Source: Escherichia phage herni
Sequence record: NC_049823.1
Direction: 5' to 3' (one strand)
DNA: 50,971 bases
Of the stretch, positions 1 to 50,971 are shown in pieces. Below the pieces are notes generated by a model. The model saw nothing but the letters and a program-made list of their open reading frames with translations, searched no databases and was not told where the DNA came from. Both the position numbers and the translations under genes were made by a program. Positions within the stretch are counted from its first letter, which is position 1, and every line of letters starts with the position of its first letter.

Positions 1-208
1 CGCCCATTATCCAACAATAATGAATGTTGCCATCAAGCGGCTCACATCCAGCGTTAAGCCAGTTTACTTTCTGGTGAGGAAACGCCATTGATGAATCAGT
101 AGCGTCACGCCGTAACGACCATTTAACGCCGCCAATCTCAATGATTTGTTTAGGCCTCATTCCGTTGAATTGAGTCACGCCAGCGCCATTTTGATTAATG
201 TTTTGCAT
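1..208 (-). CDS. hypothetical protein, N-terminal part only (continues beyond window start)
   Basis: Open minus-strand frame from ATG at 208 (MQNINQNGAGV...) with AGGTGA Shine-Dalgarno upstream; no stop before position 1. Confidence 0.4.
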   Translation of the reverse strand, partial: MQNINQNGAGVTQFNGMRPKQIIEIGGVKWSLRRDATDSSMAFPHQKVNWLNAGCEPLDGNIHYCWIMG

Positions 209-222
209 ATCGGTTCACCTTG

Positions 223-546
223 TTACATTGATTTCATTTTACGCAATGCGCAGATACAAGCGGCAGCAAGATCGGTTAATTCTTTCTCAATGCCATGATG
301 CGAGCCGTCTGCCTTTTCGGTCATTAGCTCTTTGTATTCCATTTCTACAATCGACATTAAGCCGCCTGGCTTGTCAATGTGCGCGTCCCAGGTTTTAGGA
401 TAGTGCTTAGTTCTTTCAATAACACTTCCCATAACTGAATCATGTTCATGATCTCGATCATAATCTCCATCATAGCCATTCCCTCCAATTACTACTCGCG
501 GCAAATGCACGCGCGGTAAATGATAGCCAGCGACACGAATTTTCAT
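223..546 (-). CDS. hypothetical protein (107 aa, His/Asp-rich)
   Basis: ORF track; AAGGGGA Shine-Dalgarno upstream of ATG at 546. Confidence 0.5.
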   Translation of the reverse strand: MKIRVAGYHLPRVHLPRVVIGGNGYDGDYDRDHEHDSVMGSVIERTKHYPKTWDAHIDKPGGLMSIVEMEYKELMTEKADGSHHGIEKELTDLAAACICALRKMKSM

Positions 547-559
547 GAGTATATCCCCT

Positions 560-586
560 TATAAAAAAGCGCCCCGAAAGGCGCTT
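560..586 (-). terminator. rho-independent terminator (minus strand)
   Basis: Hairpin AGCGCC-ccgaaa-GGCGCT followed by a U-run on the minus strand, just downstream of the gene ending at 599. Confidence 0.5.
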
Positions 587-598
587 GATTTATTAGCA

Positions 599-1297
599 TC
601 AGCAACAGCCAGTAAGCGGAGTCTGAGGAGTAGGCAACTTGAAGTTTACCAGTTGCTCGACCTGGTTGATTTTGCAATTCAGTGCGGCGGTCTGGTTTGC
701 CTGAGATAGAGCAAATCGCGCCTCCTGCAACTGAGCTTTCATATCGCAAATCAAAACAGCCTGAGCATCAGCGAACTGTTGGCGCATCAGATCTCGCGTT
801 GCATTGCCTTGTCGCTCAATATTCAGGTTTGTCTCACAGCAACATCTCTCCGCTGCAATCTGTGCCTGATAGGAACGCTCAAGAGCATTAACATCAGCAG
901 CATTAATCGCAGCAACTGTTTGGTTAGTACCGCTAACAATCGCGGTATTCAGTCCGGCGAAACCTTGCACCGATGCAAGCAGGTTTTGCGTATTCTGGCT
1001 GGTAATGCCGTTAAAGGTTGATGCGGCGGAGCGCTCAACGGCAAGGTTTGTTGAGTTTTGGCCTTGCAGAGTTTGCAGCCCCAGGTTGTTTACTCCTGTC
1101 TGGATGTTATTAATACCATCAAGAACAGCGTTAGCACCGACAGCAACAGCCGCACCATCACCACCATAACCACCACGACCATTAAAGCCGTTACCAAACC
1201 ATGACCCAATCAGGCCGCCAACAGCACCGCCAAGACCAGCCGCGCCAGCTTCGCCACCAAAACCACCACCAGTAGGGAGTAAAGTCATATCTGACAT
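599..1297 (-). CDS. glycine-rich hypothetical protein, possibly tail-fibre associated
   Basis: ORF track; N-terminal 60 aa are Gly-rich (GGGFGGEAGAAGLGGAVGGLIGSWFGNGFNGRGGYGGDG), Cys cluster near C-terminus; AAAGAGGAA Shine-Dalgarno; lies directly downstream of the tail fibre gene. Confidence 0.55.
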   Translation of the reverse strand: MSDMTLLPTGGGFGGEAGAAGLGGAVGGLIGSWFGNGFNGRGGYGGDGAAVAVGANAVLDGINNIQTGVNNLGLQTLQGQNSTNLAVERSAASTFNGITSQNTQNLLASVQGFAGLNTAIVSGTNQTVAAINAADVNALERSYQAQIAAERCCCETNLNIERQGNATRDLMRQQFADAQAVLICDMKAQLQEARFALSQANQTAALNCKINQVEQLVNFKLPTPQTPLTGCC

Positions 1298-1432
1298 AGT
1301 AAATTCCTCTTTGACGTTAAAAAATTAAAAAAAAAGTTTGCAACATTTATGTTACGACAAAGAGTATGCGACCAATTATCATGAATAGATATAAAATATT
1401 TGTAAGCGATATGTAAGCAACTGGCATAAAGA

Positions 1433-1461
1433 CGAAAAAAAAGCGCAGCATGAGCCGCGCC
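1433..1461 (-). terminator. putative rho-independent terminator after tail fibre gene
   Basis: Imperfect GC hairpin (GCGCAGC...GCCGCGC) followed by eight U on the minus strand. Confidence 0.4.
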
Positions 1462-1477
1462 TTTTGATTATTTTTTG

Positions 1478-2995
1478 TTAATTATCAGAAGTTTTATTCT
1501 TGTTGATCAAAGCAGAAACAACATCTTTCAGATCTTCAACCTCCTTTTCAAGATTTGAAACAATCTCTTTAAGTTCGCTAATCTCATTCTCAAGAGCTAA
1601 TACCTTGTTAGAGCTGTAAACGAATGCAGAACACAGATCCATCAACAGAACGTTACTATCGAGAGACAGCACATCGTCGGTGTATGCAACCTCCTTCCGC
1701 TCTACCACAACCTCGTTTCCTTCCTCGTCCACGCCCATAACATCCTCGTAGATGGCATACCCAGGAAGCAGGTGCACATACTCTTGGTCAATACTTACAA
1801 GATCCTGAGCGATAAGGCCGTATCGCTGTACGTCAGAATCCTTATACTTGAACATTGCCGGACGCCATTGTCGAACGCGGTTGTAGCTTTCCTCGCCGTC
1901 CGTGTATTGGATTTCTTTTTTAAGGTCGCGGTCTGATAGCGGCGCTTTCTGGAACTCGTTAACCGACGGGTTGACGCTGTTACCGCTAATAAGCCTTTGG
2001 TCTGGCAAGAAGCGGAATAGTGCCTCTGTAAATCCATCCTTCCATACGTGGACTCGGTAGTCTGATAAGTGGGTATCCCTGCCCCTTACCAAGCCAGATC
2101 GCGTCCAATCCGTGTACCACTTATGAATCGTCTGCCCAACCCAGCTATCAATTCCGAAAGACGCGTTGGACAGAATCAAACCGTTACGCTCAACATCATT
2201 GAAGACTAGCGATTCACCCCCGTCTAGGCGTAGTGATGCGTGCTTAACGTTATTATTATCACCAACCCCAAGATTAGTGCGCGCCGCCGCTGCCGTTGTT
2301 GCCGCAGTGCCGCCTTTCTCGATTGGAACGGTGTTCTCCGTAGCTACGGACCCCAAACCAAGATTAGAGCGTGCCGCAGATTTATCAGTTATCCCAACCA
2401 GGTTGCCGGATTTGGTTAGCAGGTTGTCGGGATTTACGCTTTGCGCCCATTGTTCGGCGTTAATTTCAGATTGCTTGGCGTTGACTTCAGAGGTTTTAGA
2501 TTTTGTTTCCGATAGCTTTGCTGCATCCTCAGATGCTTTAGCTGCATTCTTCGATACAAGTGCTTCCGACGCTGAATTGCTTGCGTTAGTCTCAGAAGTC
2601 TTCGCGGCGTTTTCCGCCACCTGATCAACCATCGCCTTAAACGCTTCCCAATCAAACGTTTTGAAAAATTCAATAGCTTCCTCGATCTGAGTTTCTTTGC
2701 TTTGATAGTAACGCAGCGTTTCCGCAACATCTTGCGCCAGGCCATCAACAGTGATTGAGTCATGCAGCAAAATAATGTAGTTGCTTCGCCCAATTTCAGC
2801 GCCGCCAGTTGTGATGGCGCGGATTTGTGTATCGCTGATAACTTCACTGATCACAGCCGCTTGGAATGGTGCATCAATGAAAAAGATTGTTGCACCAGGA
2901 CGAATGAGCGTTAGTTGCTCTCGCCATTTCGTTTCGTATCCAGTTATATAACCTTGAGCGTCCATTGACGCCTGTCCGGTTCTGTAAATTGCCAT
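1478..2995 (-). CDS. tail fibre protein with C-terminal intramolecular chaperone (peptidase S74-like) domain
   Basis: C-terminal SDRDLKKEIQ...RYGLIAQDL matches the conserved S74 chaperone signature, followed by a coiled-coil tail; start chosen at MAIYRTG (ATG 2995, GGGAGA Shine-Dalgarno) instead of the track start 3094 that reads through the intergenic terminator. Confidence 0.75.
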   Translation of the reverse strand: MAIYRTGQASMDAQGYITGYETKWREQLTLIRPGATIFFIDAPFQAAVISEVISDTQIRAITTGGAEIGRSNYIILLHDSITVDGLAQDVAETLRYYQSKETQIEEAIEFFKTFDWEAFKAMVDQVAENAAKTSETNASNSASEALVSKNAAKASEDAAKLSETKSKTSEVNAKQSEINAEQWAQSVNPDNLLTKSGNLVGITDKSAARSNLGLGSVATENTVPIEKGGTAATTAAAARTNLGVGDNNNVKHASLRLDGGESLVFNDVERNGLILSNASFGIDSWVGQTIHKWYTDWTRSGLVRGRDTHLSDYRVHVWKDGFTEALFRFLPDQRLISGNSVNPSVNEFQKAPLSDRDLKKEIQYTDGEESYNRVRQWRPAMFKYKDSDVQRYGLIAQDLVSIDQEYVHLLPGYAIYEDVMGVDEEGNEVVVERKEVAYTDDVLSLDSNVLLMDLCSAFVYSSNKVLALENEISELKEIVSNLEKEVEDLKDVVSALINKNKTSDN

Positions 2996-3052
2996 GCGTT
3001 TTCTCCCATGTTGCATGTTAATGTCAATGCAGATAATAGCATTTGATAAGGC

Positions 3053-3077
3053 AAAAAAAAACCCCGCAATGCGGGGT
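3053..3077 (-). terminator. rho-independent terminator after primase gene
   Basis: Hairpin CCCCGCAATGCGGGG followed by nine U on the minus strand. Confidence 0.6.
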
Positions 3078-3094
3078 AAAAGTAGCAGTGACAT

Positions 3095-4027
3095 TTAGAG
3101 AAGAGATTCAGGTTTGTAAACCTTCCTCTCTATCCCTTGCCTGTAATTATCATTAATCGGCATCATAATTTCAAGACCTCTTTCCTCAGCAGCAATGATC
3201 GCGTCACGGTCTGTACTCTTACAGACAACTCGCATTCTTCTGTTGCCTTTATACCTGTAAGCTACAATCTCAATGTTAGTTGCATCAAAGCAGGCCCAAA
3301 CCTCTTGACCAGTTGCAAGGTGAATATGTTGCGCATCAATCCAGTCAACGCAAAGATAGATCGTCTTATCTGTGCTTCCTGTTCTCACAATTGACCCGCG
3401 CGTGTAGTCCTTTGCGAGAAAAGACTTATTACCTTCTTCATCAATGAAAAGCACATTGCACATTTCATCATCAATTTCATCTGAATGTACCAGGTAACAT
3501 GGGAGCGCGTGAATGTATCGACCATCTTTAACGCCGCATTCATAATGACCATCTTCAGGCGGGTATATTCCTTCATATGTGCTTAACGGCGTGCGATCAA
3601 ATTTTAGTGTTTTTGACATAACGCGCTCGCAGCATTCATGGCTTGCCTGTTTCCCAAATGAATAACCAGAATCACGAGATACTCGCTTATTTGCCTTGAT
3701 TCTATAGTCCTGCGGAACTTTTCCAAGAAAGCGGCCCAAAATATTGATCACTTCGCTGTAAGGTTCTCCGGTTAGTTTCATGATCCAACCAATTCCAGTA
3801 TCATTACCGCACACGTTGCAGATCGCACCGCCATCGCCTTTTTTATCGCAAAGTTTATCCGTCCACCTGAAGCGATCCTTTCCGCCGCAGTGGGGGCAAG
3901 ATTGATGCTTGCCGTTAAAAACTTCATTTGGAAGACCGCAAATACTTTGTAGCGCCTCACGCCATAATCCCTGCATATATGGGAGAACATCTTCCTTTTG
4001 ATAAACCATAAAGTTTTCGTTATTCAT
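3095..4027 (-). CDS. putative DNA primase (zinc-ribbon plus Toprim-like)
   Basis: CPHCGG...CNVCG zinc-ribbon near N-terminus, acidic DxD-like motifs downstream; start at MNNENF (ATG 4027, GAGGTG Shine-Dalgarno); sits beside the helicase locus. Confidence 0.5.
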   Translation of the reverse strand: MNNENFMVYQKEDVLPYMQGLWREALQSICGLPNEVFNGKHQSCPHCGGKDRFRWTDKLCDKKGDGGAICNVCGNDTGIGWIMKLTGEPYSEVINILGRFLGKVPQDYRIKANKRVSRDSGYSFGKQASHECCERVMSKTLKFDRTPLSTYEGIYPPEDGHYECGVKDGRYIHALPCYLVHSDEIDDEMCNVLFIDEEGNKSFLAKDYTRGSIVRTGSTDKTIYLCVDWIDAQHIHLATGQEVWACFDATNIEIVAYRYKGNRRMRVVCKSTDRDAIIAAEERGLEIMMPINDNYRQGIERKVYKPESLL

Positions 4028-4083
4028 ATGCACCTCAAACAAAAAAAGCCTGACAGATGATAACATCATTCCAGGCATTGTTT

Positions 4084-4557
4084 TTAGCAATTAGTGCTTT
4101 CAGGTTTATACAGGAATCCGCCAGGTTCATAATCTGACATTCTTACCACTCGCAACATTTCACGCTTATCACATCTCTTTGTGAGCGGTTTGCCATTGGA
4201 ATCAAATCGCAGGTCTGGACGACAGAATGATGCGCGATAGCCTTGACATCCATATTTTTTGTAATCGTTATGCACCTTTTGAGCGCCAGCGGCTGAAATC
4301 ATACCACGAACGCGCCACTGATTTACAGTTTGCTGGCTAACGTTAAGACGTTTTGCCATTGCTGACACGCTTCCGTAATACTCAATAAGGATGTCAAGTC
4401 GCGCTTTTAGTCCGGCGCGCACTTCATCTTTTAAAACATAGTATCCCGTAGGGCGCTTGCGCTTCTTCTTGTCCTTGCCTCTTCGAGTTCCGTTATTGCC
4501 ATTAATTGTTCGCTTGTCAATCTTTCCTGTTGATACTGCGATTCGTTGCTCTTTCAT
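4084..4557 (-). CDS. helix-turn-helix DNA-binding protein
   Basis: ORF track; predicted HTH segment AKRLNVSQQTVNQWRVRGMIS; very basic N-terminus; GGAGA Shine-Dalgarno. Confidence 0.55.
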   Translation of the reverse strand: MKEQRIAVSTGKIDKRTINGNNGTRRGKDKKKRKRPTGYYVLKDEVRAGLKARLDILIEYYGSVSAMAKRLNVSQQTVNQWRVRGMISAAGAQKVHNDYKKYGCQGYRASFCRPDLRFDSNGKPLTKRCDKREMLRVVRMSDYEPGGFLYKPESTNC

Positions 4558-4570
4558 TATTCATTCTCCA

Positions 4571-4616
4571 ATAGCATTTTTTGTTAAACGATGATTTAAT
4601 GATTGTGTATTATACA
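4571..4616 (+). promoter_or_regulatory. conserved intergenic motif copy (ATAGCATTTTTTGTTAAA) plus ATTATA hexamer 22 nt downstream
   Basis: Matches the repeated motif; co-oriented with the helicase gene. Confidence 0.4.
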
Positions 4617-4646
4617 CACCAAATGGCATTACTCAAAGGTTTTAGA

Positions 4647-6686
4647 ATGATTCCAAACATTGAAAAGCAAATATCAGCACTTGGTGAAGCGGTAATTAAA
4701 TCCATTCAGGAGCGATTCACTGTTGGAGAGATTGTGCCTTACCCTTACCAGTGCGTTGCATACGCTGAGATCGCAAAGCGTATGAAAAATTATGAGCATC
4801 CATTCTTTGTTAAAGCGTCCGTATCGGCTGGCAAAACATTGATGTTTGCAATGGTTGCTCACCAGTGCCGGAAAATGGGCTTGAAAATGATGGTCCTTGC
4901 TCGCCAGGCTGAGATTGTGGATCAGGATTCTGAAGAGATAACAAATATTGGTGTGCCGAACTCCATCTATTGTGCAGGACTGAAGACAAAAAGCGCATAC
5001 TTTCCGATCGTTGTTGGTTCTGAGGGAACTGTAGTTAATGGACTGTTTAAAGCGCTTGGCGACTATGTTCCGCACGTTATCGGGATTGACGAGTGTCACC
5101 AGGTGGATTGGGAAGACCTTGCCGACGCAATAGAGAAAGACGAATCATTTTTACAAATGACGACGAAGAAAGGCGAAAAAGTACCAAATCCAGATTATGA
5201 CATAACGAGCGATAACGAATGCGAAGAGTTCCTGATTGGTGAGGATGGCTTACCAATGGAGGGAACAGGCCGCACGCAATACACTGTTATTATCATGGAA
5301 ATGATGCGACGTTGCAGGAAAGCATATGGTCATGAACTGCGCATCTTTGGTATGACTGGTTCGGAGTTTCGCGGAGTAGTCCCGATCCTAGTAGAAGACA
5401 AAAAACAGAAAGGATTCTGGCGTGAACAGGTTACTAATATTGACACCAACTACCTGATCAAATTCGGTTCTGTTGTGCCAACAAATTTTGGCGACGTTGG
5501 CGATCTAGGGTATGACCTTTCAGAGTTTGAGGCATCCAGCGAGGATGGCGTCGCAGACTTTGACGCTAAAACGCTTCGCAGGATGGAACAAAAAATTCAT
5601 GAAGAAGCGACCATGACAAAGCGCATCATGGCGAAAGTTCACGAGATCTGTAAAAACCGTAACGGCGTACTTGTGACATGTGCAGGAGAAAGGCATTGCA
5701 AAGAGGCAGCGGCGGCATTGCCACCTGGAACGACTTACAGGATCATTACTGGTAAGACTGGCGACAACCAGCGCAAGGAGTGGTTGAGGGAAGCATACGA
5801 AGGGAAGGTAAAATACATCTTCCAGGTTCAGGCGCTAACTACTGGCGTTAACGTGCCGTTTTGGGATACGTCTGTTATTCTGCGTAAGATTGGATCGCTA
5901 ACTTTGCTGATTCAGCTTTTAGGACGCGGAATGCGACTTCTTAAGAAATGGCATAAGGAACAAGGCTTCAAGAAAGATGATCACCTGGTTATGGATTTTT
6001 CAGGAACGATGGACGAGTTAGGTGAGCTTTATTTTGATCCGATACTGGAACAGGCGCAACATCAGAAGCGATTCAGGAACGGTAAAGATCCGAAGCCTTG
6101 TCCTGTTTGCGGAACTCTTAATAGCTATTATGCTCGTCGTTGTATGCACGTAGACGAAAACGGCAACAGATGCGAGTGGTTCTTTAAATTCAGGACATGT
6201 GATGATCAGATTGACACGCGCACTAAAAAGATTATTCAGCGCGGTTGTGGAACGAAAAATGATATTGCGGCCAGGGTATGCAGACATTGCGACATGTCAT
6301 TGATTGACCCTAACGAGAAGTTAAGCGGAAAGCACTACACAAAAAACGACTGGTTTCAGGTGCAATCTTTCTCGGTTGACATGACGAAAAACCAGAAAGG
6401 GATAATATTTAATTATGAGCTTTCCGATGGCATAGACACTTTCAGGGCGAGAGAGATATTTTTCCCTGAATCTGAGAGCCAAATTTGCCGCGCAAAATGG
6501 CGAAGCGTTGCTCTTAAGCACATACCAGATCGCCGTGTTGCTGGCATGGTGGCGAGCTATCGTAATGCACGTAAAATCATGCAATATGTGAATCACATCA
6601 TGCCACCATCGCGTGTAACTCACCGCAAGACTAGCAAGGGTGAAGATAATTTGTACAAGAAGGACTTTAATTATGGCAATGACTGA
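4647..6686 (+). CDS. superfamily 2 DNA helicase with C-terminal zinc-ribbon region
   Basis: Walker A SVSAGKT, DExH box IDECHQ, C-terminal CxxC pairs; start ambiguous (ATG 4623 with no Shine-Dalgarno, or ATG 4647 with AAAGG; track start TTG 4581 lies inside the upstream motif). Confidence 0.7.
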   Translation: MIPNIEKQISALGEAVIKSIQERFTVGEIVPYPYQCVAYAEIAKRMKNYEHPFFVKASVSAGKTLMFAMVAHQCRKMGLKMMVLARQAEIVDQDSEEITNIGVPNSIYCAGLKTKSAYFPIVVGSEGTVVNGLFKALGDYVPHVIGIDECHQVDWEDLADAIEKDESFLQMTTKKGEKVPNPDYDITSDNECEEFLIGEDGLPMEGTGRTQYTVIIMEMMRRCRKAYGHELRIFGMTGSEFRGVVPILVEDKKQKGFWREQVTNIDTNYLIKFGSVVPTNFGDVGDLGYDLSEFEASSEDGVADFDAKTLRRMEQKIHEEATMTKRIMAKVHEICKNRNGVLVTCAGERHCKEAAAALPPGTTYRIITGKTGDNQRKEWLREAYEGKVKYIFQVQALTTGVNVPFWDTSVILRKIGSLTLLIQLLGRGMRLLKKWHKEQGFKKDDHLVMDFSGTMDELGELYFDPILEQAQHQKRFRNGKDPKPCPVCGTLNSYYARRCMHVDENGNRCEWFFKFRTCDDQIDTRTKKIIQRGCGTKNDIAARVCRHCDMSLIDPNEKLSGKHYTKNDWFQVQSFSVDMTKNQKGIIFNYELSDGIDTFRAREIFFPESESQICRAKWRSVALKHIPDRRVAGMVASYRNARKIMQYVNHIMPPSRVTHRKTSKGEDNLYKKDFNYGND

Positions 6687-7092
6687 TAAAGGCGATTATC
6701 TGGAGTTTTACGAAAGAGATCCGACGGATACGCTAAAAGAGGAATCACACCAGATCGGGGCGTTTCAATGGTTGACTTATGCTTACCCTGAATTGCTGGC
6801 ATGGCATACGAAAAACGAGGGCGACAAGGGGATCGCCACCGCAATGATGGATCAGCAAGCCGGACTCGTTAAGGGCGTAAGTGATTTTATCATCCTGATT
6901 GGATTAAAAGGCCGTTATCCGTTTGCAGCAATTGAGATGAAGCGCGTCAATAAGTCTGGAAAGGGTAAGGCTTCACCAGTCAGTAAGGAGCAAAAAGCCT
7001 TCTTACGACGTGTGCGCGAGCTTGGCGGATTCGCTGCCGTAACATACGGATATAAGCAATTCATGATCGCTGTAGAATACATGATGAAATAG
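6673..7092 (+). CDS. VRR-NUC domain nuclease
   Basis: PD-(D/E)XK-like core GVSDFIIL...IEMK; start at MAMTDKG (AAGGA Shine-Dalgarno) overlaps the helicase stop. Confidence 0.55.
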   Translation: MAMTDKGDYLEFYERDPTDTLKEESHQIGAFQWLTYAYPELLAWHTKNEGDKGIATAMMDQQAGLVKGVSDFIILIGLKGRYPFAAIEMKRVNKSGKGKASPVSKEQKAFLRRVRELGGFAAVTYGYKQFMIAVEYMMK

Positions 7093-7132
7093 CACTTTTT
7101 GTTAAAACAGGCGCGAAGGATTGCGCCATAAT
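7087..7132 (+). promoter_or_regulatory. conserved intergenic motif AAATAGCACTTTTTGTTAAAAC, hairpin GGCGC-n8-GCGCC, CATAAT
   Basis: Motif contains the TAG stop of the upstream gene; ATAAT-like hexamer lies about 35 nt upstream of the Dam gene start. Confidence 0.45.
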
Positions 7133-7166
7133 AACACCAGTTCAACAAGCAACAGGTAATTAAGAA

Positions 7167-7868: not shown

Positions 7869-7872
7869 TATC

Positions 7873-8112
7873 ATGCAGAAAGAAAGAAGCGTTTATTTAA
7901 ATGAAACTGGAGAGTGGTTGTTATTTCGCGCTATGGTTTGCGAGGCGCTTGATAAAAACGAGTTCATAAAACCGCTATTAGGTTGTGATCCGTGGGAGTT
8001 TACAAGCGCGCTTGATATGAGCTTTGAGGAAACAAGAAAACTACCGCTTGAAAAATGGCATGAGCAGATCGGTAAAGACTTGCAAGAGTTTTACGAATCC
8101 GCGACAAAATAG
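7873..8112 (+). CDS. hypothetical protein (79 aa)
   Basis: ATG 7873 with GGAG Shine-Dalgarno; track ORF 7699 overlaps the Dam gene; stop embedded in the next motif copy. Confidence 0.5.
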   Translation: MQKERSVYLNETGEWLLFRAMVCEALDKNEFIKPLLGCDPWEFTSALDMSFEETRKLPLEKWHEQIGKDLQEFYESATK

Positions 8113-9956: not shown

Positions 9957-10172
9957 ATGAAAGATTTTTTAAACGCTGCAACTTCCGGCACTGGCGGAGC
10001 GTCAATCACTGGCGCGGTAACTGGTCAAACAACTATTGCAATAGCCAGCTTCGTTTTGATGGCTGCATTTGGTATGTGGGGCGCTTATCTTCGCTGGCGT
10101 GATAGTAAGGCGCTACGTGACGCGCTTGAATGCGGTGATATTAAGAAAGCTATTGAGATCAGAGGTAAATAA
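9957..10172 (+). CDS. holin (likely pinholin partner of the SAR endolysin)
   Basis: 71 aa, hydrophobic segment [21 protein letters not shown], charged C-terminus; immediately upstream of and overlapping the endolysin start. Confidence 0.6.
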
Positions 10173-10660
10173 TGAGTATAAAACAAAGAGTGACCGCTGC
10201 GGCTTTTGGCGTTGCTCTTGCCCTTACTTCTCCGCTACTGGAGGAAATAGAAGGAGTAAAACATAAGCCGTACAAAGATATTGCTGGGGTATGGACGGTT
10301 TGCGCCGGAATAACTGGCCCTGACGTAATACAAGGCAAAACGTACACACAAAGAGAGTGCGATGCACTACTGGCGAAGCATATCAAGATCGCAAAGGATG
10401 AAGTTGATAAGCGTGTAAAGGTTGACATTCCTGATACAATGCGCGCAGCAATGTATTCATTCACATACAATGCTGGAACTGGAGCTTTTAGAAATTCAAC
10501 CATGCTTAAGCTGATTAATAACGGTCGTTATATGGAAGCGTGCGATCAGTTATGGAGATGGACAAAATACACCAATCCAAAAACAGGAAAGAAAGAAACG
10601 TCTAAAGGACTGCGCAACCGCCGCGCGGTGGAATTTAAATATTGCATTAAGGATCTGTAA
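10172..10660 (+). CDS. SAR endolysin (T4-type lysozyme fold with signal-anchor-release N-terminus)
   Basis: Weakly hydrophobic Gly/Ala-rich N-terminal segment [17 protein letters not shown] followed by E-x8-D-x5-T catalytic spacing ([19 protein letters not shown]). Confidence 0.8.
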
Positions 10661-10662
10661 TT

Positions 10663-11061
10663 ATGCGAAAGTTATCAATAATCGCTATCGCTGTTATTTT
10701 GTCTGGATGTTCAAGCGTTACGCCACTGACCGGATTAATAGGTAGCAAGCCGGAAATCACAGCACAGGCAGGATCGGAGAACGTAAAGCAGGCCGTTGGC
10801 GTTACCGCAAAGCAGGACACCAGCACAAAACAGGAAACTACAATAAAGGAATCTGCGGTTGATAAGGTGGACACTTCCAGCAAGAAGGATTTCACTACGT
10901 CAACCATTCATGCAAACACCATCAAGGCTGATAAAATCCAGGTTGTGCAGGGTGAGCAAAGGAAGTGGTACGATCCTATAATCTATTGCGCTGCAATTTT
11001 CAGTGGTCTTTTGTCAATGCTTTACTTTTCCTACCGCAAAGGCAACGAAAAGGAGGCTTAA
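10663..11061 (+). CDS. unimolecular spanin (outer-membrane lipoprotein with C-terminal transmembrane helix)
   Basis: Lipobox LSGC at N-terminus, Thr/Lys-rich linker, C-terminal helix IIYCAAIFSGLLSMLYF; architecture of the T1 gp11 class. Confidence 0.65.
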   Translation: MRKLSIIAIAVILSGCSSVTPLTGLIGSKPEITAQAGSENVKQAVGVTAKQDTSTKQETTIKESAVDKVDTSSKKDFTTSTIHANTIKADKIQVVQGEQRKWYDPIIYCAAIFSGLLSMLYFSYRKGNEKEA

Positions 11062-42635: not shown

Positions 42636-45600
42636 ATGGCTGAAAATATGATAACGGGCAGTAAGGGTGGATCATCAAAACCTTATGTTCCGAAAGAGAT
42701 GGAAGATAACCTGATCTCAATCAACAAAATCAAAATACTTCTTGCCGTTTCCGATGGTGAGTGCGATCCAAGTTTTACACTTCGCGATCTGTATCTTGAT
42801 GATGTTCCGGTAATTGCAGACGACGGAACTGTTAACTACCAGGGTGTGAAAGCTGAATTTCGACCTGGAACGCAGACGCAAGATTACATCCAGGGATTTA
42901 CTGACACATCAAGCGAAGTGACGCTGGCGCGTGACATTACTACATCAAATCCTTATGTAATTTCTGTAACCAACAAAACATTATCGGCTATCAGAATCAA
43001 AATGCTAATGCCAACAGGCATTAAGCAAGAGGATAACGGCGATCTTGTCGGCGTTAAGGTTACTTATGCTGTTGATATGGCTGTTGACGGAGACTCTTAC
43101 AAAGAAGTATTGCTAGACACCATCGAAGGTAAAACGCGTTCCGGTTACGACAGAAGCCGAAGGATTGACCTTCCGGCATTTAATGATCGCGTATTGCTTA
43201 GGGTTAGAAGGGTTACGGCAGACAGCGCATCCTCTCGCGTTACTGATCTGATTAAGCTACAAAGTTACGCTGAGGTTATTGATGCAAAATTCCGTTATCC
43301 TCTGACTGGTCTTGTATACGTTGAACTTGACAGTGAGTTGTTCCCTAACCAGATCCCTAACATTTCAATCAAGAAGAAATGGAAGTTAATTAATGTTCCG
43401 AGCAATTACGATCCAGTAATGCGAGAGTATCACGGTTCATGGGATGGTACTTTCAAGAAAGCGTGGTCGAACAATCCGGCGTGGGTTCTTTATGACATTA
43501 TCACAAACCAGCGATACGGATTAGATCAGCGAGAACTTGGCGTGCAGGTTGACAAATGGAGTCTTTACGAAGCGGCGCAATACTGCGATCAGAAAGTGCC
43601 GGATGGAAAAGGCGGTACAGAGCCGCGTTATCTATGCGACGTTGTGATTCAAAGCCAGATTGAGGCTTATCAGCTTATTCGTGATATTTGCTCAATCTTC
43701 CGAGGCATGAGCTTTTGGAATGGCGAGAGCTTGTCAATCGTCATTGATAAGCCGCGCGATCCGTCGTACATCTTCACCAATGACAACGTTGTTGATGGTG
43801 ATTTTCAGTACACAACAGCAAGCGAAAAGAGCATGTACACGCAGTGCAACGTGACGTTCGACGACGAACAAAACATGTACCAACAGGACGTAGAGGGCGT
43901 ATTCGACACCGAGGCAGCATTGCGATTTGGATACAATCCTACAAGCATAACAGCGATTGGATGTACACGCAGGAGTGAGGCTAATCGGCGCGGTCGATGG
44001 ATACTAAAAACTAACTTGCGCAGCACTACGGTAAACTTTGCTACTGGACTGGAAGGCATGATCCCATCAATAGGTGATGTGATTGCTATTGCTGACAACT
44101 TTCACAGCAGCAACCTTAAGTTAAACCTATCAGGGCGCGTGATGGAAGTTTCAGGCTTGCAGGTGTTCGCTCCGTTTAAGATTGACGCGCGACCAGGTGA
44201 TTTCATTATCATCAACAAGCCAGACGGGAAGCCAGTTAAGCGCACAATCTCAAAAGTAAGCGGTGACGGAAAAACCATTGAGCTAAATATTGGGTTTGGA
44301 TTTGAGGTTAAACCTGACACGGTTTTTGCAATCGACCGCACTGATATTGCATTGCAGCAATACGTTGTAACGAGTATCGGCAAAGGTGATGATGATGATG
44401 AATTTACATACTCCATCACGGCTGTTGAATATGACCCGAACAAATACGACGAGATTGATTATGGAGTAAACATTGACGACAGGCCAACTTCAATTGTCCA
44501 GCCTGACACAATGGCAGCGCCTGAAAATGTGCAAATATCCTCCTACTCGCGAATTGTCCAGGGTGCAAGCGTTGAAACAATGGTTGTGTCGTGGGATAAA
44601 GTACCTTACGCATCGCTGTATGAAATGCAGTGGCGAAAAGGTGATGGCAACTGGCTGAATACACCACAGACTGCAAACAAAGAAATTGAGGTTGAAGGTA
44701 TTTATTCAGGAAACTACCAGGTAAGGGTTAGATCTGTTTCTGCTTCAGGTTCGACGTCGCCGTGGTCCAGAATTGTAACAGCTTCACTGACTGGTAAGGT
44801 AGGAGAGCCAGGCGCGCCAGTTAACTTAACTGCATCCGACAATGAGGTGTTTGGCATTCGTGTTAAGTGGGGGATGCCAGAAGGCAGCGGAGACACGGCA
44901 TACATTGAGCTTCATCAGTCGCCGGATGGAACGGCTGAAAACTCAAGCCTGTTAACTCTGATCCCATATCCACAATATGAATACTGGCACGGTACGCTTC
45001 CGGCTGGTCATGTTGTATGGTATAGAATCCGCAGTGTTGACAGAATCGGCAACGTTTCCGGATGGACTGATTTTGTTAGAGGCATGGCTTCAGATGATGT
45101 GGAGGCTGTTTTAGGCAATATTCTTGATAAGATTTTTGATACCGAAGCAGGGAAGGATCTGAAAGAGAATGCCATTGATAGCGCAAACAAAATCAAGGAT
45201 CAGGCGCAAAGCATCATTCAAAACGCATTGGCGAATGATGCAGACGTTAGGATTATGAGGAAGGAAAACGGAAAACGCAAAGCCGAATTCAGGCAATCAA
45301 TACAGTTGATCGCAGATGAAACTGAGGCGCGCGTTACCGCAATGACGCAACTCAAGGCTGAATTTGACGAGGAAATAACTAGCGAAGTAACGAGGCTTGA
45401 TCAGGCAATTGCAACAGAATCGGAAACGCGAGCAACAGCCATTGAGGAATTGAAATCACAGATTGGAGATGATATTCAGGGGCAGTTAACGAGAGTTGAG
45501 GAGGCGATTGCAAGCGAAACAGAGGCGCGCGTTTCTGCTGACACAGCATTAACAGCGAAGTTTGGAGATGTTGAATCAGCGCTGACGGAAAAACTTGATT

Positions 45601-46061
45601 CATGGGCTGGCGTTAATGGAGTTGGCGCACAGTACGCAATGAAACTTGGATTGACATACAACGGTCAGAAGTACAGTGCTGGTATGGTGATGCAGCTTTC
45701 GCAGGGTTCATCCGGCCTTATTTCGCAGATTTTGTTTGATGCGAACAGGTTCGCTATCATGACAAGTTCGACCGGAGGGTCGTATACATTGCCTTTTGTG
45801 GTTGAAAATAACCAAGTTTTCATTAACAGCCTGTTAGTGAAAAACGGATCAATCACAAACGCCATGATCGGTAACTTCATCCAATCAAACAATTACGTTT
45901 GGAATCAAACAGGATGGAGGCTGGATAAAAACGGAACGTTTGAAAATTATGGTTCTACTCCTGGAGAGGGGGCCATGAAAATGACAAACGAAACGATCAG
46001 CGTTAGGGATGCAAACGGCGTTTTGCGTGTTCAGATTGGTAGGCTTACTGGTACGTGGTAA
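42636..46061 (+). CDS. host specificity / central tail fibre protein (lambda J-like)
   Basis: 1141 aa; position after the K/I-like genes; fibronectin-III-like segment; C-terminal heptad-like ETEAR repeats. Confidence 0.85.
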   Translation: MAENMITGSKGGSSKPYVPKEMEDNLISINKIKILLAVSDGECDPSFTLRDLYLDDVPVIADDGTVNYQGVKAEFRPGTQTQDYIQGFTDTSSEVTLARDITTSNPYVISVTNKTLSAIRIKMLMPTGIKQEDNGDLVGVKVTYAVDMAVDGDSYKEVLLDTIEGKTRSGYDRSRRIDLPAFNDRVLLRVRRVTADSASSRVTDLIKLQSYAEVIDAKFRYPLTGLVYVELDSELFPNQIPNISIKKKWKLINVPSNYDPVMREYHGSWDGTFKKAWSNNPAWVLYDIITNQRYGLDQRELGVQVDKWSLYEAAQYCDQKVPDGKGGTEPRYLCDVVIQSQIEAYQLIRDICSIFRGMSFWNGESLSIVIDKPRDPSYIFTNDNVVDGDFQYTTASEKSMYTQCNVTFDDEQNMYQQDVEGVFDTEAALRFGYNPTSITAIGCTRRSEANRRGRWILKTNLRSTTVNFATGLEGMIPSIGDVIAIADNFHSSNLKLNLSGRVMEVSGLQVFAPFKIDARPGDFIIINKPDGKPVKRTISKVSGDGKTIELNIGFGFEVKPDTVFAIDRTDIALQQYVVTSIGKGDDDDEFTYSITAVEYDPNKYDEIDYGVNIDDRPTSIVQPDTMAAPENVQISSYSRIVQGASVETMVVSWDKVPYASLYEMQWRKGDGNWLNTPQTANKEIEVEGIYSGNYQVRVRSVSASGSTSPWSRIVTASLTGKVGEPGAPVNLTASDNEVFGIRVKWGMPEGSGDTAYIELHQSPDGTAENSSLLTLIPYPQYEYWHGTLPAGHVVWYRIRSVDRIGNVSGWTDFVRGMASDDVEAVLGNILDKIFDTEAGKDLKENAIDSANKIKDQAQSIIQNALANDADVRIMRKENGKRKAEFRQSIQLIADETEARVTAMTQLKAEFDEEITSEVTRLDQAIATESETRATAIEELKSQIGDDIQGQLTRVEEAIASETEARVSADTALTAKFGDVESALTEKLDSWAGVNGVGAQYAMKLGLTYNGQKYSAGMVMQLSQGSSGLISQILFDANRFAIMTSSTGGSYTLPFVVENNQVFINSLLVKNGSITNAMIGNFIQSNNYVWNQTGWRLDKNGTFENYGSTPGEGAMKMTNETISVRDANGVLRVQIGRLTGTW

Positions 46062-50435: not shown

Positions 50436-50458
50436 AAGGGGCATTACGCCCCTTTATC
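50436..50458. terminator. bidirectional terminator between convergent genes
   Basis: GGGGC-atta-GCCCC flanked by A and T runs. Confidence 0.5.
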
Positions 50459-50701
50459 ACTTTCAGCCATCCCAAGCACGGCAATTACTTTAACAGCAAT
50501 TCTCTTTGCTAGTTCAGTTTGATGCGCATTTAATTTTCCGGTAGTCATTATTGACAGCATTCCGCTCATACTACCTAGCCCGTTAAAATCTGACATTGCT
50601 GATTTCATTATTGATATTGGCAAATGACCTTCGTCAGCTATTGTGTGCGCTCTCTCTGACAGGTCTTTAACTACCTGATCAATTCCTTCACTTTTCGTCA
50701 T
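50444..50701 (-). CDS. hypothetical protein (85 aa)
   Basis: ORF track. Confidence 0.45.
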   Translation of the reverse strand: MTKSEGIDQVVKDLSERAHTIADEGHLPISIMKSAMSDFNGLGSMSGMLSIMTTGKLNAHQTELAKRIAVKVIAVLGMAESDKGA

Positions 50702-50957
50702 TTGCTTTTCCTTCAGGAGTTGATTGTTGTTCTGGCATTACAGGCCATGGGCTAATTGATTCCCTTTCTGCGACTGGCTTTTCAGGTTCAATTCCTAAAA
50801 ACTTTCCTACAAACTCACCAACAAAATTTGAGCTATCGCTTACATAAACATGCATCCTGTCCAGATCTGCAACAGTAACGCTATTTGGTGCGATCATGAT
50901 CCTCTGTTGGTGAAAACCGATATACATCACATTAGCCGGACGCTCAAGAGTCCCCAT
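50688..50957 (-). CDS. hypothetical protein (89 aa)
   Basis: ORF track; start close to the window end. Confidence 0.45.
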   Translation of the reverse strand: MGTLERPANVMYIGFHQQRIMIAPNSVTVADLDRMHVYVSDSSNFVGEFVGKFLGIEPEKPVAERESISPWPVMPEQQSTPEGKANDEK

Positions 50958-50971
50958 ATTTGGCGCAATTA

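What the first reader, a model, noticed from the sequence alone, without database searches (positions are those of the whole stretch)
599..2995. Side tail fibre with self-cleaving chaperone domain next to a glycine-rich protein
The fibre gene carries the S74-type intramolecular chaperone signature (SDRDLKKEI...GLIAQDL) and lies far from the J-like central fibre, implying two receptor-binding systems. The next gene encodes a protein whose first 60 residues are about 50% Gly with GxxxG-like spacing, then Asn/Gln/Thr-rich repeats and terminal Cys clusters. It could be a fibre-associated adhesin or a membrane-active protein.
Basis: partly seen in the sequence, partly recalled or inferred. Interest (0 to 1): 0.45.

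Follow-up and report, generated by a model that had tools for sequence, protein, structure and literature searches.

The report
Side fibre beside an orphan cassette
The fibre gene is the ordinary, already described lateral tail fibre of a T1-like coliphage. The glycine-rich gene next to it is not a fibre part: it is the first gene of a small, dispensable four-gene accessory cassette of unknown function that also sits in other positions in other phages.

Summary
The window is the complete genome of Escherichia phage herni, a T1-like phage (Drexlerviridae). Gene 1478..2995(-) is its lateral tail fibre. It has a conserved N-terminal anchor and a C-terminal Peptidase_S74 self-cleaving chaperone domain (Pfam E=1.5e-9, SDxxxK and GLIAQD motifs intact). 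This architecture and the two receptor-binding systems are already published for this family.

Gene 599..1297(-) is real and under purifying selection (dN/dS 0.04-0.2). It has no Pfam or NCBIfam match and belongs to phrog_9288, function unknown. The predicted protein is a disordered Gly/Ala zipper (aa 9-48), one long helix (aa 55-220) carrying an invariant CCCETNLNIERQ motif, and a Pro-rich tail ending in CC.

It does not track the fibre. It stays at least 96% identical while the distal fibre falls below 40%. An S74 fibre lies upstream in only 14 of 28 loci. T1 and Sfin-1 have fibres without it. In Sergei and PY100 it lies nowhere near a fibre. JakobBernoulli carries a nonsense codon in it. 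It does always travel with three downstream genes (107, 163 and 85 aa) and with its own -10-like element plus hairpin.

The adhesin reading is not supported. A membrane-associated accessory role is plausible but unproven.

The parts
1478..2995 (-). Lateral (side) tail fibre gene, 505 aa. The mechanical ORF runs on to 3094, but the true start is M34 at 2995.
   Evidence: PHROG tail fibre families phrog_5481 (E=9.6e-93) and phrog_1980 (E=3.6e-69). The orthologue in JakobBernoulli is annotated 'lateral tail fiber protein'. The terminator at 3061..3077 lies inside the upstream ORF extension.
2450..2995 (-). Fibre aa 1-182: conserved N-terminal virion-anchor domain followed by the start of an Ala/Ser/Glu/Lys-rich shaft.
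   Evidence: phmmer hits PDB 7VYV, 7VZ3 and 7LZJ 'Depolymerase' residues 1-177 at E about 6e-51. This part is 72-86% identical in related phages while the rest of the fibre diverges.
1481..1936 (-). Fibre aa 354-505: Peptidase_S74 intramolecular chaperone domain. It has the S354-D-R-D-L-K359 motif, GLIAQD, and a C-terminal helix.
   Evidence: Pfam PF13884 E=1.5e-9, profile positions 1-57 of 58. An alignment with 13 other fibre C-termini shows the conserved SDxxxK and G-x-IAQ motifs.
3061..3077 (-). Intrinsic terminator between the primase gene and the fibre gene.
   Evidence: 7-bp stem with 6 GC pairs, followed by a T run.
1438..1465 (-). Intrinsic terminator directly after the fibre gene. It separates the fibre from the Gly-rich gene.
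   Evidence: 12-pair stem followed by a T run. It is conserved in related phages. The weak Rfam sub-threshold hits here only reflect the terminator hairpin.
1340..1368 (-). -10-like hexamer CATACT (1363..1368), then 7 nt, then the hairpin GTAAC-ATAAAT-GTTGC (1340..1355). Read as a putative cassette promoter with a 5'-terminal mRNA stem-loop.
   Evidence: The same arrangement lies upstream of the orthologous gene in Tempevirinae, Queuovirinae, Sashavirus, eiAU and PY100 lineages. RNAalifold gives 6 pairs, 4 with compensatory double changes. The segments were hand-picked, so this is suggestive only.
599..1297 (-). Gly-rich protein gene, 232 aa (phage herni gp02, 'hypothetical protein'), first gene of the four-gene cassette.
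   Evidence: phrog_9288 E=1.8e-121, unknown function. No significant Pfam match (one hit at E=0.055, below its cut-off) and no NCBIfam match. Exact match to YP_009901633.1. dN/dS 0.04-0.2 against orthologues.
1154..1273 (-). aa 9-48: Gly/Ala zipper segment, 50% Gly, with G27 and G31 invariant.
   Evidence: AF2 pLDDT is below 50 here. Simple Hessa-scale dG is +5.2 kcal/mol for aa 17-35, against -1.6 to +1.3 for the equivalent segment in distant homologues.
638..1135 (-). aa 55-220: a single predicted alpha-helix about 25 nm long, containing the invariant CCCETNLNIERQ (CCC at nt 836..844) and LICD.
   Evidence: AF2 with a 47-sequence alignment gives pLDDT above 90 for about aa 140-215 and 63-80 for aa 60-130.
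602..637 (-). aa 221-232: Pro/Thr-rich tail ending in G-C-C.
   Evidence: NFKLPTPPTPPTGCC is conserved in close relatives but not in the wider family.
567..586 (-). Intrinsic terminator after the Gly-rich gene. It is also terminator-like on the + strand.
   Evidence: A terminator is annotated at the same place after Sergei gp19.
223..546 (-). Cassette gene 2, 107 aa: a small MazG-like (all-alpha NTP pyrophosphatase-like) protein. Orthologues often carry a His-rich N-terminal tract.
   Evidence: phrog_9157. A family profile hits PDB 2P06 AF_0060 at E=8.8e-4. ExxE...ExxD pattern and His tracts are seen. The KurtStettler orthologue is annotated 'putative pyrophosphatase'.
1..208 (-). 3' part of cassette gene 3 (163 aa). 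The gene wraps around the window ends; the 5' part is at 50688..50971.
50688..50971 (-). 5' part of cassette gene 3 (163 aa).
50444..50701 (-). Cassette gene 4, 85 aa, function unknown.
   Evidence: phrog_7239. It is collinear with the other three genes in 28 of 29 loci.
42636..46061 (+). J-like central tail fibre / tip attachment protein. This is context only: the second receptor-binding system.
   Evidence: Pfam FNIII-A_GpJ 7.3e-38, Phage-tail_3 4e-23, Phage_Tail_Tip 1.1e-40.

Best explanation
Two unrelated things lie side by side.

(1) Gene 1478..2995(-) is the lateral tail fibre of a T1-like phage. It has an N-terminal anchor that docks on the tail, a short shaft and a variable tip. Its C-terminal S74 intramolecular chaperone is expected to drive trimer folding and then cut itself off at the conserved Ser (S354), leaving a mature fibre of about 354 residues. 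By analogy with related phages, this fibre gives reversible binding to surface glycans. J and its partner proteins give irreversible binding. This part is shown by homology, and the mechanism is inferred from the family.

(2) Gene 599..1297(-) is not a fibre component. It is the leading gene of a mobile, dispensable four-gene cassette. The cassette comprises the Gly-rich helical protein, a MazG-like small pyrophosphatase, a 163-aa beta-rich orphan and an 85-aa orphan. It carries its own -10-like element and 5' hairpin, and it sits at different genomic sites in different phage lineages.

The protein is most likely a non-virion accessory protein. Its N-terminal Gly zipper would associate with, or insert into, the cytoplasmic membrane of the infected cell. 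From there it would project a roughly 25-nm, Cys-rich helical rod, probably as an oligomer. The acidic N-flank suggests an N-out/C-in orientation. Its role would be to modulate infection in nature rather than to build or aim the virion; examples would be excluding competing phages, interfering with an envelope- or nucleotide-based host response, or tethering the cassette's enzymes at the membrane.

Cassette membership, dispensability and independence from the fibre are shown. Membrane association, topology, oligomeric state and biological role are inferred.
For: Fibre: Pfam S74; PHROG tail fibre families; N-terminal domain equals the solved depolymerase anchor; conserved SDxxxK and GxIAQ motifs; published descriptions.

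Independence from the fibre:
- The Gly-rich protein stays 96-99% identical where the distal fibre is 27-38% identical or undetectable (L001, L002, L008, L009, L010).
- An S74 domain is present upstream in only 14 of 28 loci.
- T1 has the fibre and primase but none of the four cassette genes.
- Sfin-1 has an S74 fibre directly followed by SSB.
- In Sergei the cassette follows terL. In PY100 and X1 it lies among early genes.

Cassette:
- The four genes are collinear in 28 of 29 loci.
- The 163-aa gene occurs in 138 phage records. Its genus counts equal those of the Gly-rich gene apart from an excess of Salmonella and Escherichia records, of which the sampled rows are T5-like phages.
- A -10-like element plus hairpin is conserved upstream.

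Dispensability: a nonsense codon at Q78 in JakobBernoulli; multiple in-frame stops in the T5-like phage polluks; an in-frame fusion lacking the first ~16 residues in KurtStettler.

Real gene: dN/dS 0.04-0.2.

Membrane association: distant family members (phrog_16490) have a hydrophobic core such as IWLLIILFFIMF at the homologous position. The N-flank is net negative in 44 of 47 sequences and the C-flank is 0 or +1 in most.

Helical rod: AF2.
Against: No experiment bears on localisation. No virion proteome was found for any phage that carries the gene.

The Gly zipper of the enterobacterial clade is only weakly hydrophobic: KD 1.1, simple dG about +5 kcal/mol, and 51 of 62 family representatives at or above +3. 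It might not span a membrane at all.

The AF2 model is a monomer with pTM 0.31. The single straight helix may be an artefact of modelling one chain. No significant heptad periodicity was found.

The three partner genes gave no functional clue beyond the MazG-like similarity, so 'cassette' is a statement of linkage, not of shared function.

The gene lies directly after a fibre gene in three or four lineages and was co-transferred with an S74 fibre into T5-like phages. Some fibre-related role in those lineages cannot be fully excluded.

The JakobBernoulli nonsense allele still encodes the N-terminal 77 residues.
Confidence: 0.55

Rival explanations
1. The Gly-rich protein is a fibre accessory: a distal adhesin, a cap, or an assembly chaperone of the lateral tail fibre. 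This is the first reader's idea, and the KurtStettler orthologue is annotated 'putative lateral tail fiber chaperone'.
For: The gene is immediately downstream of the fibre gene in Tempevirinae, Queuovirinae, eiAU and T5-like Epseptimavirus. In KurtStettler it is fused in frame to the S74 domain.
Against: There is no co-variation with the distal fibre. Half of the upstream fibres lack S74. The S74 domain is itself the chaperone. T1 and Sfin-1 fibres do without the gene. It lies far from any fibre in Sergei and PY100. JakobBernoulli carries a nonsense allele and is reported to plate on O16-restored K-12. The copies in T5-like phages are decayed. The protein is an all-helical rod without a binding domain. 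The KurtStettler 'chaperone' label follows from the deletion fusion, not from the protein itself.
Confidence: 0.07
2. It is a virion-borne membrane-penetrating protein: an ejection, pilot or fusion-like device. An N-terminal fusion-peptide-like Gly zipper plus a long coiled coil would help DNA cross the envelope. The architectural models are influenza HA2 and the phiX174 H tube.
For: Architecture only. A profile search of the PDB returns almost exclusively HA2 N-termini (fusion peptide plus helix A) at E=0.02-0.3. The helix is long enough (about 25 nm) to span a periplasm.
Against: The E-values are not significant and the many HA2 hits are one family counted repeatedly. The gene is dispensable. 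It is encoded outside the structural modules in PY100 and after terL in Sergei. The tape measure and J already supply the ejection machinery in T1-like phages (own knowledge). In the PY100 record ORF29 is left as 'hypothetical protein' while virion proteins are named; this is weak evidence.
Confidence: 0.08
3. It is a soluble cytoplasmic coiled-coil or metal-binding scaffold with no membrane role. It would work with the His-rich MazG-like enzyme and the two orphans, for example in nucleotide metabolism or counter-defence. The Gly-rich N-terminus would be a flexible low-complexity region.
For: The Gly zipper is too weakly hydrophobic to be a classical TM segment in 51 of 62 family representatives. 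Conserved CCC, CC and CxxC-like tails (for example CHNGCHGCC in P0159) and the His tracts in cassette gene 2 look like metal ligands. Linkage to a pyrophosphatase-like gene is strict.
Against: Distant homologues replace the zipper with a clearly hydrophobic core, which points to a membrane-related ancestral function. G27 and G31 and the extreme N-terminus MSDMTLLP are invariant, which is unusual for a mere flexible linker.
Confidence: 0.2
4. It is a lysis accessory, a spanin-like or antiholin-like protein acting in the periplasm. It would have an N-terminal SAR-like Gly/Ala-rich anchor and a disulfide-linked coiled coil reaching the outer membrane through the Pro-rich tail.
For: A Gly/Ala-rich weakly hydrophobic N-terminus resembles SAR domains, and periplasmic coiled coils with intermolecular disulfides are known from Rz (own knowledge). 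In Firmicutes-type prophages the distant homologue lies just after the lysis genes.
Against: The phage has a complete T1-type lysis cassette elsewhere: holin 9957..10172, lysozyme 10172..10660, and a u-spanin-like lipoprotein with a C-terminal TM at 10663..11061. hhalign against lambda Rz gives probability 5%, and against the phage's own spanin 0.1%. The N-terminus has no basic n-region, and the flank charges favour N-out/C-in. Homologues occur in phages of Gram-positive-like hosts, where spanins are not needed.
Confidence: 0.05

Closest known systems
Lateral tail fibres of Drexlerviridae, e.g. JakobBernoulli Gp36 and T1 ST26
   Same: Same locus, downstream of primase and convergent with the recombination/SSB genes. 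The N-terminal anchor is 52-86% identical. The domain order is the same: anchor, coiled shaft, variable tip. In many members, herni included, there is a C-terminal IMC.
   Different: The middle and tip of the herni fibre are below 40% identical to any compared relative. No phage record covers at least 80% of the 3.8-kb query at megablast level. At 505 aa it is shorter than most: 643-865 aa in close relatives.
Phage T5 L-shaped tail fibre pb1 and endosialidase C-terminal intramolecular chaperone (Peptidase_S74)
   Same: Pfam S74 match over the whole profile. Ser with Lys five residues downstream, the G-x-IAQ motif and the terminal helix are all present. The expected mechanism is trimerisation help followed by self-cleavage (own knowledge; T5 structure paper cited in PMC11990801 ref. 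119).
   Different: No sequence-level hit to any solved S74 structure at E<=0.01. Cleavage was not demonstrated here.
Klebsiella T1-like phage depolymerases with solved structures (PDB 7VYV, 7VZ3, 7LZJ)
   Same: The N-terminal ~180 residues are homologous at E about 6e-51. This is the shared virion-attachment module.
   Different: Those proteins continue into a ~700-residue depolymerase body. herni continues into a short fibre with an IMC.
phrog_9288 / phrog_16490 (uncharacterised phage protein families)
   Same: The Gly-rich protein is a full-length member of phrog_9288 (E=1.8e-121). Distant relatives fall in phrog_16490 and share the QGFxG and CCCETN motifs.
   Different: Neither family has any assigned function, so membership explains nothing about mechanism.
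phiX174 DNA pilot protein H, influenza HA2 and lambda Rz (architectural analogues only)
   Same: A Gly-rich or zipper-like N-terminal membrane-interacting segment followed by a very long helix. Rz also has functionally important Cys (own knowledge). Weak HA2 matches were seen.
   Different: No significant sequence relationship: HA2 at E>=0.02, Rz at hhalign probability 5%. Unlike H and Rz, the gene is dispensable.

Membership tests
Peptidase_S74 intramolecular chaperone (fibre C-terminus) | Significant match to the family profile over its full length | tested here: met
   PF13884 E=1.5e-9, 38.4 bits against a cut-off of 22, profile positions 1-57 of 58.
Peptidase_S74 intramolecular chaperone (fibre C-terminus) | Conserved Ser at the cleavage site with Lys five residues downstream. 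The Ser/Lys dyad of endoNF and T5 pb1 is recalled from own knowledge. | tested here: met
   S354-D-R-D-L-K359. The same S-D-x-x-x-K pattern is in 12 of 13 aligned fibres.
Peptidase_S74 intramolecular chaperone (fibre C-terminus) | Actual autoproteolytic release of the C-terminal domain | not testable with these tools
   Needs SDS-PAGE or MS of expressed protein or virions.
Drexlerviridae lateral tail fibre | Conserved N-terminal anchor shared across the family, plus the position next to primase | tested here: met
   The N-terminal 130-150 aa are 52-86% identical in T1, JakobBernoulli and others. The primase gene is adjacent.
Drexlerviridae lateral tail fibre | Presence in the virion and a role in glycan (O-antigen) binding | not testable with these tools
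   Only literature inference for relatives is available (PMC8594841). The Sfin-1 fibre orthologue was detected by LC-MS/MS.
Tail fibre assembly protein / separate fibre chaperone (for the Gly-rich protein) | Sequence or profile similarity to known Tfa / gp38 / Mu U-type chaperones | tested here: not met
   No significant Pfam match (only PA2201_N at E=0.055, below its cut-off), no NCBIfam hit, and only an unknown-function PHROG.
Tail fibre assembly protein / separate fibre chaperone (for the Gly-rich protein) | Co-variation and obligatory co-occurrence with the cognate fibre tip | tested here: not met
   At least 96% identity next to tips below 40% identity. Present without an adjacent fibre in Sergei and PY100. 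Absent from T1.
Spanin (i-spanin or u-spanin) (for the Gly-rich protein) | Location in the lysis cassette, an N-terminal TM or lipobox, and homology to Rz or gp11-type proteins | tested here: not met
   The lysis cassette, with a u-spanin-like gene, is at 9957..11061. hhalign probabilities are 5% and 0.1%.
Single-pass membrane protein (for the Gly-rich protein) | A hydrophobic segment able to span the bilayer | tested here: inconclusive
   KD 1.13 and simple dG +5.2 kcal/mol for aa 17-35. Distant homologues score -1.6 to +1.3 at the same place. No dedicated TM predictor was available.
MazG-like all-alpha NTP pyrophosphatase (for cassette gene 2, 223..546) | Profile similarity to a solved member and the ExxE...ExxD metal-binding pattern | tested here: inconclusive
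   PDB 2P06 at E=8.8e-4. Its assignment to the MazG-like superfamily is from memory. The pattern is visible in the alignment. Pfam PRA-PH hits the KurtStettler orthologue at only E=0.016.

The most novel reading that the evidence does not exclude
The four genes form a self-contained, horizontally mobile accessory system of a kind not yet described. The genes are the Gly-zipper/Cys-rich helical protein, the His-rich MazG-like pyrophosphatase, the 163-aa beta-rich orphan and the 85-aa orphan. They carry their own promoter and 5' hairpin. The helical protein would anchor the system at the cell membrane, and the system would give the phage a conditional advantage, such as counter-defence against a nucleotide-signalling or envelope-based immunity, or exclusion of competing phages. 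The wider family of N-terminal anchor plus CCCETN helix would be an ancient phage membrane module shared between phages of Gram-negative and Gram-positive hosts.
Probability: 0.3. Interest if true: 0.6.

Novelty: new member of a known kind. Interest (0 to 1): 0.3.

Why it matters
The fibre itself adds nothing new. It is one more allele at a locus known to be hypervariable.

The practical value is corrective. The Gly-rich gene should not be treated as part of the receptor-binding apparatus in host-range engineering or annotation. Two BASEL records label its orthologue, or fragments of it, 'putative lateral tail fiber chaperone' and 'putative sugar-binding protein'.

The cassette is a well-defined, strongly conserved yet dispensable four-gene unit. 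It is found in about 138 sequenced phages from at least five lineages: Tempevirinae, Queuovirinae, Sashavirus, eiAU-like and PY100-like. None of its genes has a known function. Units of this kind have often turned out to encode counter-defence or exclusion functions, so it is a reasonable, cheap target for deletion and phenotyping.

Tried and rejected
- Family libraries. Pfam, NCBIfam and PHROGs on all four cassette proteins and on distant homologues gave only unknown-function PHROGs.
- Gly-rich protein structure. The AF2 model is one long helix, and BFVD Foldseek gave 0 hits. I did not run further fold searches on it because a lone helix matches anything.
- PDB profile search of the family. 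It returned only sub-significant influenza HA2 hits and one 'Gp18' chain (9M8O, E=0.03) that I did not identify. I kept these as analogy and rejected them as homology.
- Spanin hypothesis. hhalign against lambda Rz and against the phage's own u-spanin was negative.
- Partner genes in distant homologues. The Firmicutes-type neighbours are not distant homologues of the 163-aa protein.
- Coiled-coil or repeat periodicity. A Fourier analysis found nothing above shuffled controls.
- Rfam scan of 1..3300. Only sub-threshold hits on terminator hairpins.
- Literature search for virion proteomes or phenotypes. Sf11 turned out not to be T1-like and lacks the gene. Sfin-1 lacks the gene. The 9g and P400 papers have no proteomics. 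The PY100 and 9NA-like papers are not held. The daunorubicin paper is irrelevant. No paper mentions this protein.


Full report
WHAT THE WINDOW IS. The 3.8 kb around the finding is 92-97% identical, over about 70% of its length, to T1-like coliphages of the genus Hanrivervirus and relatives such as JakobBernoulli, slyngel and grams. The 232-aa product of 599..1297(-) is identical to YP_009901633.1, 'hypothetical protein H1N87_gp02' of Escherichia phage herni, whose contig is 50,971 bp, the length of the window. The window is therefore a complete, circularly permuted genome cut at an arbitrary point. A 163-aa gene spans the two ends.

THE FIBRE. The mechanical ORF 1478..3094(-) has 33 extra codons at its 5' end. 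An intrinsic terminator at 3061..3077 lies inside that extension. All homology starts at M34, MAIYRTGQ.... Its parts are as follows.
- Residues 1-182 match the N-terminal module of solved depolymerases of T1-like Klebsiella phages (7VYV, 7VZ3, 7LZJ; E about 6e-51). They are 52-86% identical in T1, JakobBernoulli and others. This is the shared attachment domain.
- Residues 172-249 resemble a common fibre segment (7Z47, 9ZD7).
- Residues 354-407 match Pfam Peptidase_S74 over the whole profile (E=1.5e-9). An alignment with 13 other fibre C-termini shows the S-D-x-x-x-K motif (S354, K359), G-x-IAQ and the terminal helix.

From what is known of endosialidase and T5 pb1 (own knowledge; T5 reference cited in PMC11990801), this domain chaperones trimer folding and then removes itself. 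Cleavage was not tested here.

The J-like central fibre is at 42636..46061(+). Across the window junction it is only about 6.4 kb from the fibre gene. The two are separated by recombination genes, SSB and the cassette described below. T1 has the same layout.

A separate, hypervariable lateral-fibre locus in addition to J and a bona fide RBP is the published picture for Drexlerviridae (PMC8594841). The T5-like tip with an IMC has been modelled for JakobBernoulli Gp36 (PMC11990801). This half of the finding is correct and already known.

THE GLY-RICH GENE: ANATOMY. Gene 599..1297(-) has a GAGGA ribosome-binding site 8-12 nt upstream of the ATG. It is bracketed by intrinsic terminators at 1438..1465 and 567..586. 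The composition figures need correction.
- Gly is 35% of residues 1-60 and 50% of residues 9-48.
- Cys residues are at 152-154, 184, 208 and 231-232.

About 230 relatives at 90%-cluster level, nearly all 225-265 aa, are 58-98% identical. They share an invariant N-terminus (M-x-D-M-T-L-x-P), G27 and G31 within GGxxGGLIGSWFGNGW, the motifs QGFAGLNT and CCCETNLNIERQ, LICD, and in most NFKLPTPPTPPTGCC. Pairwise dN/dS against orthologues is 0.04-0.2, so this is a real, selected protein.

A profile search of 1.8 billion representatives finds 106 clusters, most 200-290 aa. Across that wider family the N-terminal Gly/Ala segment, QGFxG, CCC-x-T, EGxATR and LCDxK persist. The Pro-rich CC tail does not.

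AlphaFold2 with 47 diverse sequences gives the following.
- A disordered N-terminus, residues 1-54, with pLDDT below 50.
- One continuous helix, residues 55-220, with pLDDT above 90 for about 140-215.
- A coil tail.
- pTM is only 0.31, as expected for a rod modelled as a monomer.

I found no hydrophobic periodicity above shuffled controls. 'Coiled coil' and 'repeats' therefore remain inferences.

There is no significant match in Pfam, NCBIfam or BFVD. The only PHROG is phrog_9288, function unknown.

THE GLY-RICH GENE: IT DOES NOT BELONG TO THE FIBRE. Five observations bear on this.
1. In phages where the distal fibre is 27-38% identical or undetectable, the Gly-rich protein remains 96-99% identical (L001, L002, L008, L009, L010). 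The recombination boundary of the variable fibre cassette lies between the two genes.
2. An iterated S74 profile finds the domain in the upstream fibre in only 14 of 28 loci that carry a close Gly-rich homologue.
3. T1 has the fibre and primase but none of the cassette genes; SSB abuts the fibre gene. Sfin-1 has an S74-type fibre directly followed by SSB (PMC6714547).
4. In Salmonella phage Sergei (Sashavirus) the gene follows the large terminase, far from J and the tailspike (PMC8273493). In Yersinia phages PY100 and X1 it lies among early genes.
5. The gene is dispensable.
   - JakobBernoulli carries Q78->stop. It is nevertheless the one BASEL Drexlerviridae phage reported to plate robustly on K-12 with restored O16 antigen, which the authors attribute to its lateral fibres.
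   - The copy in the T5-like phage polluks has several in-frame stops, and in many other sampled T5-like records only a short part of the protein still matches.
   - The KurtStettler gene labelled 'putative lateral tail fiber chaperone' is a deletion fusion. It joins a truncated S74 domain to residue ~17 of the Gly-rich protein.

The T5-like copies sit just after an S74 fibre. The fibre end and its neighbour may have moved together, with the neighbour then decaying as a passenger.

WHAT IT DOES BELONG TO. In 28 of 29 loci with a close homologue the gene is followed, on the same strand and in the same order, by three further genes (in the window 223..546, 50688..50971 plus 1..208, and 50444..50701).
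- A 107-122-aa gene, phrog_9157.
- A 146-186-aa gene, phrog_8329.
- A 79-94-aa gene, phrog_7239.

The 163-aa gene occurs in 138 phage records, against 227 for the Gly-rich gene. Genus counts are identical for Yersinia, Shigella, Edwardsiella, Klebsiella, Enterobacter and others. The excess consists of Salmonella and Escherichia records, and the sampled rows in that excess are T5-like phages.

Functional clues from the partner genes are thin.
- The 107-aa protein has an ExxE...ExxD pattern, and its orthologues often have a His tract. Its profile hits PDB 2P06 at E=8.8e-4. From memory 2P06 is a MazG-like all-alpha NTP pyrophosphatase; BASEL annotates the orthologue 'putative pyrophosphatase'.

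Upstream of the Gly-rich gene, every lineage examined has a -10-like hexamer (CATACT, TATACT, TATGCT, TATTCT, TAGAAT or GATACT). After 7-10 nt comes a 5-7-bp hairpin whose stem sequence differs but stays complementary, in places through G.U pairs. RNAalifold gives 6 pairs, 4 with compensatory changes. I chose those segments by eye, so this is a lead, not a proof. It fits a cassette that brings its own promoter and a 5'-terminal mRNA stem-loop.

HOW IT MAY WORK. The clue to the N-terminus comes from distant relatives (phrog_16490). These occur in loci that I judge, from gene content only, to be prophages of Firmicutes-type hosts, and in an unrelated lytic phage group. At the position of the Gly zipper they have a clearly hydrophobic core flanked by Gly runs, for example GGGIWLLIILFFIMFAGGGYGG, while keeping QGFxG and CCCETN.

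In the enterobacterial clade the segment is only weakly hydrophobic: KD 1.1, simple Hessa-scale dG about +5 kcal/mol, and at or above +3 in 51 of 62 representatives. It resembles glycine-zipper, SAR or fusion-peptide-type segments more than a classical TM helix.

The N-flank is net negative in 44 of 47 sequences, and the C-flank is neutral or +1 in most. By the positive-inside rule this favours N-out/C-in, with the Cys-rich rod in the cytoplasm.

The PDB profile search returns almost only influenza HA2 N-termini (fusion peptide plus helix A), but at E>=0.02. I treat that as an architectural echo, not homology.

Lysis functions are complete elsewhere (9957..11061), and there is no similarity to Rz or to the phage's own spanin.

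My best reading is a non-virion, membrane-associated helical accessory protein that leads a dispensable cassette. I put confidence in the whole package at about 0.55. That it is not a fibre adhesin or chaperone I hold at about 0.9.

COMPARISON AND NOVELTY.
- The fibre is a new allele of a known kind.
- The Gly-rich protein is a member of an uncharacterised family.
- In the library available to me I found no paper that mentions the protein or describes the cassette, its mobility between genomic positions or its conserved upstream element.
- No function is demonstrated, so the overall interest is modest.

Noticed in passing
window 1340-1368 (- strand); also L006, L012, L016-L024, L045, L046 upstream of the orthologous gene: A -10-like hexamer followed 7-10 nt later by a 5-7-bp hairpin is conserved upstream of the Gly-rich gene in every lineage examined. 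The stems differ but stay complementary (GTAAC/GTTAC, GTAGC/GCTAC, GTAGTC/GACTAC, GCGAAC/GTTCGC), in places through G.U pairs. This suggests a cassette-borne promoter plus a 5' mRNA stem-loop, or an operator.
   Followed up: partly
window 50688-50971 + 1-208 (- strand): The window is the complete 50,971-bp genome of Escherichia phage herni, cut inside a 163-aa gene. Distances measured in window coordinates, such as fibre to J, therefore mislead.
   Followed up: yes
L001 (JakobBernoulli MZ501079) 3194-3898: The orthologue carries a Q78->stop codon. It is annotated as two genes, 'hypothetical protein' and 'putative sugar-binding protein'. The second label has no support from the sequence.
   Followed up: yes
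L003 (KurtStettler MZ501091) 3981-5513: The 510-aa 'putative lateral tail fiber chaperone' is an in-frame deletion fusion. It joins a distal fibre protein with a truncated S74 domain to the Gly-rich protein from about residue 17.
   Followed up: yes
L004 (Salmonella phage polluks NC_102110) 5749-6450, and many other T5-like records: T5-like Epseptimavirus phages carry decayed copies of the Gly-rich gene, with several in-frame stops or only a ~55-aa remnant. In polluks the copy lies just after an S74-bearing 661-aa fibre-like protein and lacks the other three cassette genes. This looks like a hitch-hiking remnant of a fibre-end transfer.
   Followed up: partly
L030, L033, L040, L041 around 6000-8000: Distant homologues with a hydrophobic N-terminal core lie in what look like Firmicutes-type prophages (my judgement from gene content), between the lysis genes and the integrase or recombinase. 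The neighbourhood is different but itself conserved: a small sigma/HTH-like gene, a Q/P-rich 140-155-aa protein (phrog_21718), a 75-100-aa protein, the homologue, then a 143-aa Cys-containing beta-rich protein (phrog_20016). All are of unknown function.
   Followed up: partly
GenBank MG065669, MG065637, MG065675, MG065636 ('Campylobacter phage A123, A15b, A118, A16a'): These records are ~50-kb T1-like genomes. Their cassette proteins are 98-100% identical to those of coliphages. The Campylobacter host label is probably wrong, or the phage stocks were contaminated.
   Followed up: no
window 223-546 (- strand) and orthologues (alignment A5): Cassette gene 2 orthologues carry His-rich tracts of variable length (e.g. 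HHHHHYHHGHH) before a conserved MazG-like C-terminal half. Together with the CCC and CC motifs of gene 1 this hints at metal binding.
   Followed up: partly
window 9957-11061 (+ strand): A complete T1-type lysis cassette. It has a 71-aa holin-like protein, a 162-aa phage lysozyme with a hydrophobic N-terminus, and a 132-aa protein with a lipobox (LSGC) and a C-terminal TM segment, i.e. a gp11-like unimolecular spanin.
   Followed up: partly
window 567-586, 1438-1465, 3061-3077 (- strand): Each gene in this stretch is followed by its own intrinsic terminator, as annotated throughout the T1 genome. Terminators between genes here do not by themselves imply separate operons.
   Followed up: no
OK272487 (Escherichia phage JLBYU09) 35172-35660: A 100% identical copy of the 163-aa cassette protein overlaps features annotated 'putative TerL protein' and 'hypothetical protein'. 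The TerL label appears to be a misannotation.
   Followed up: no
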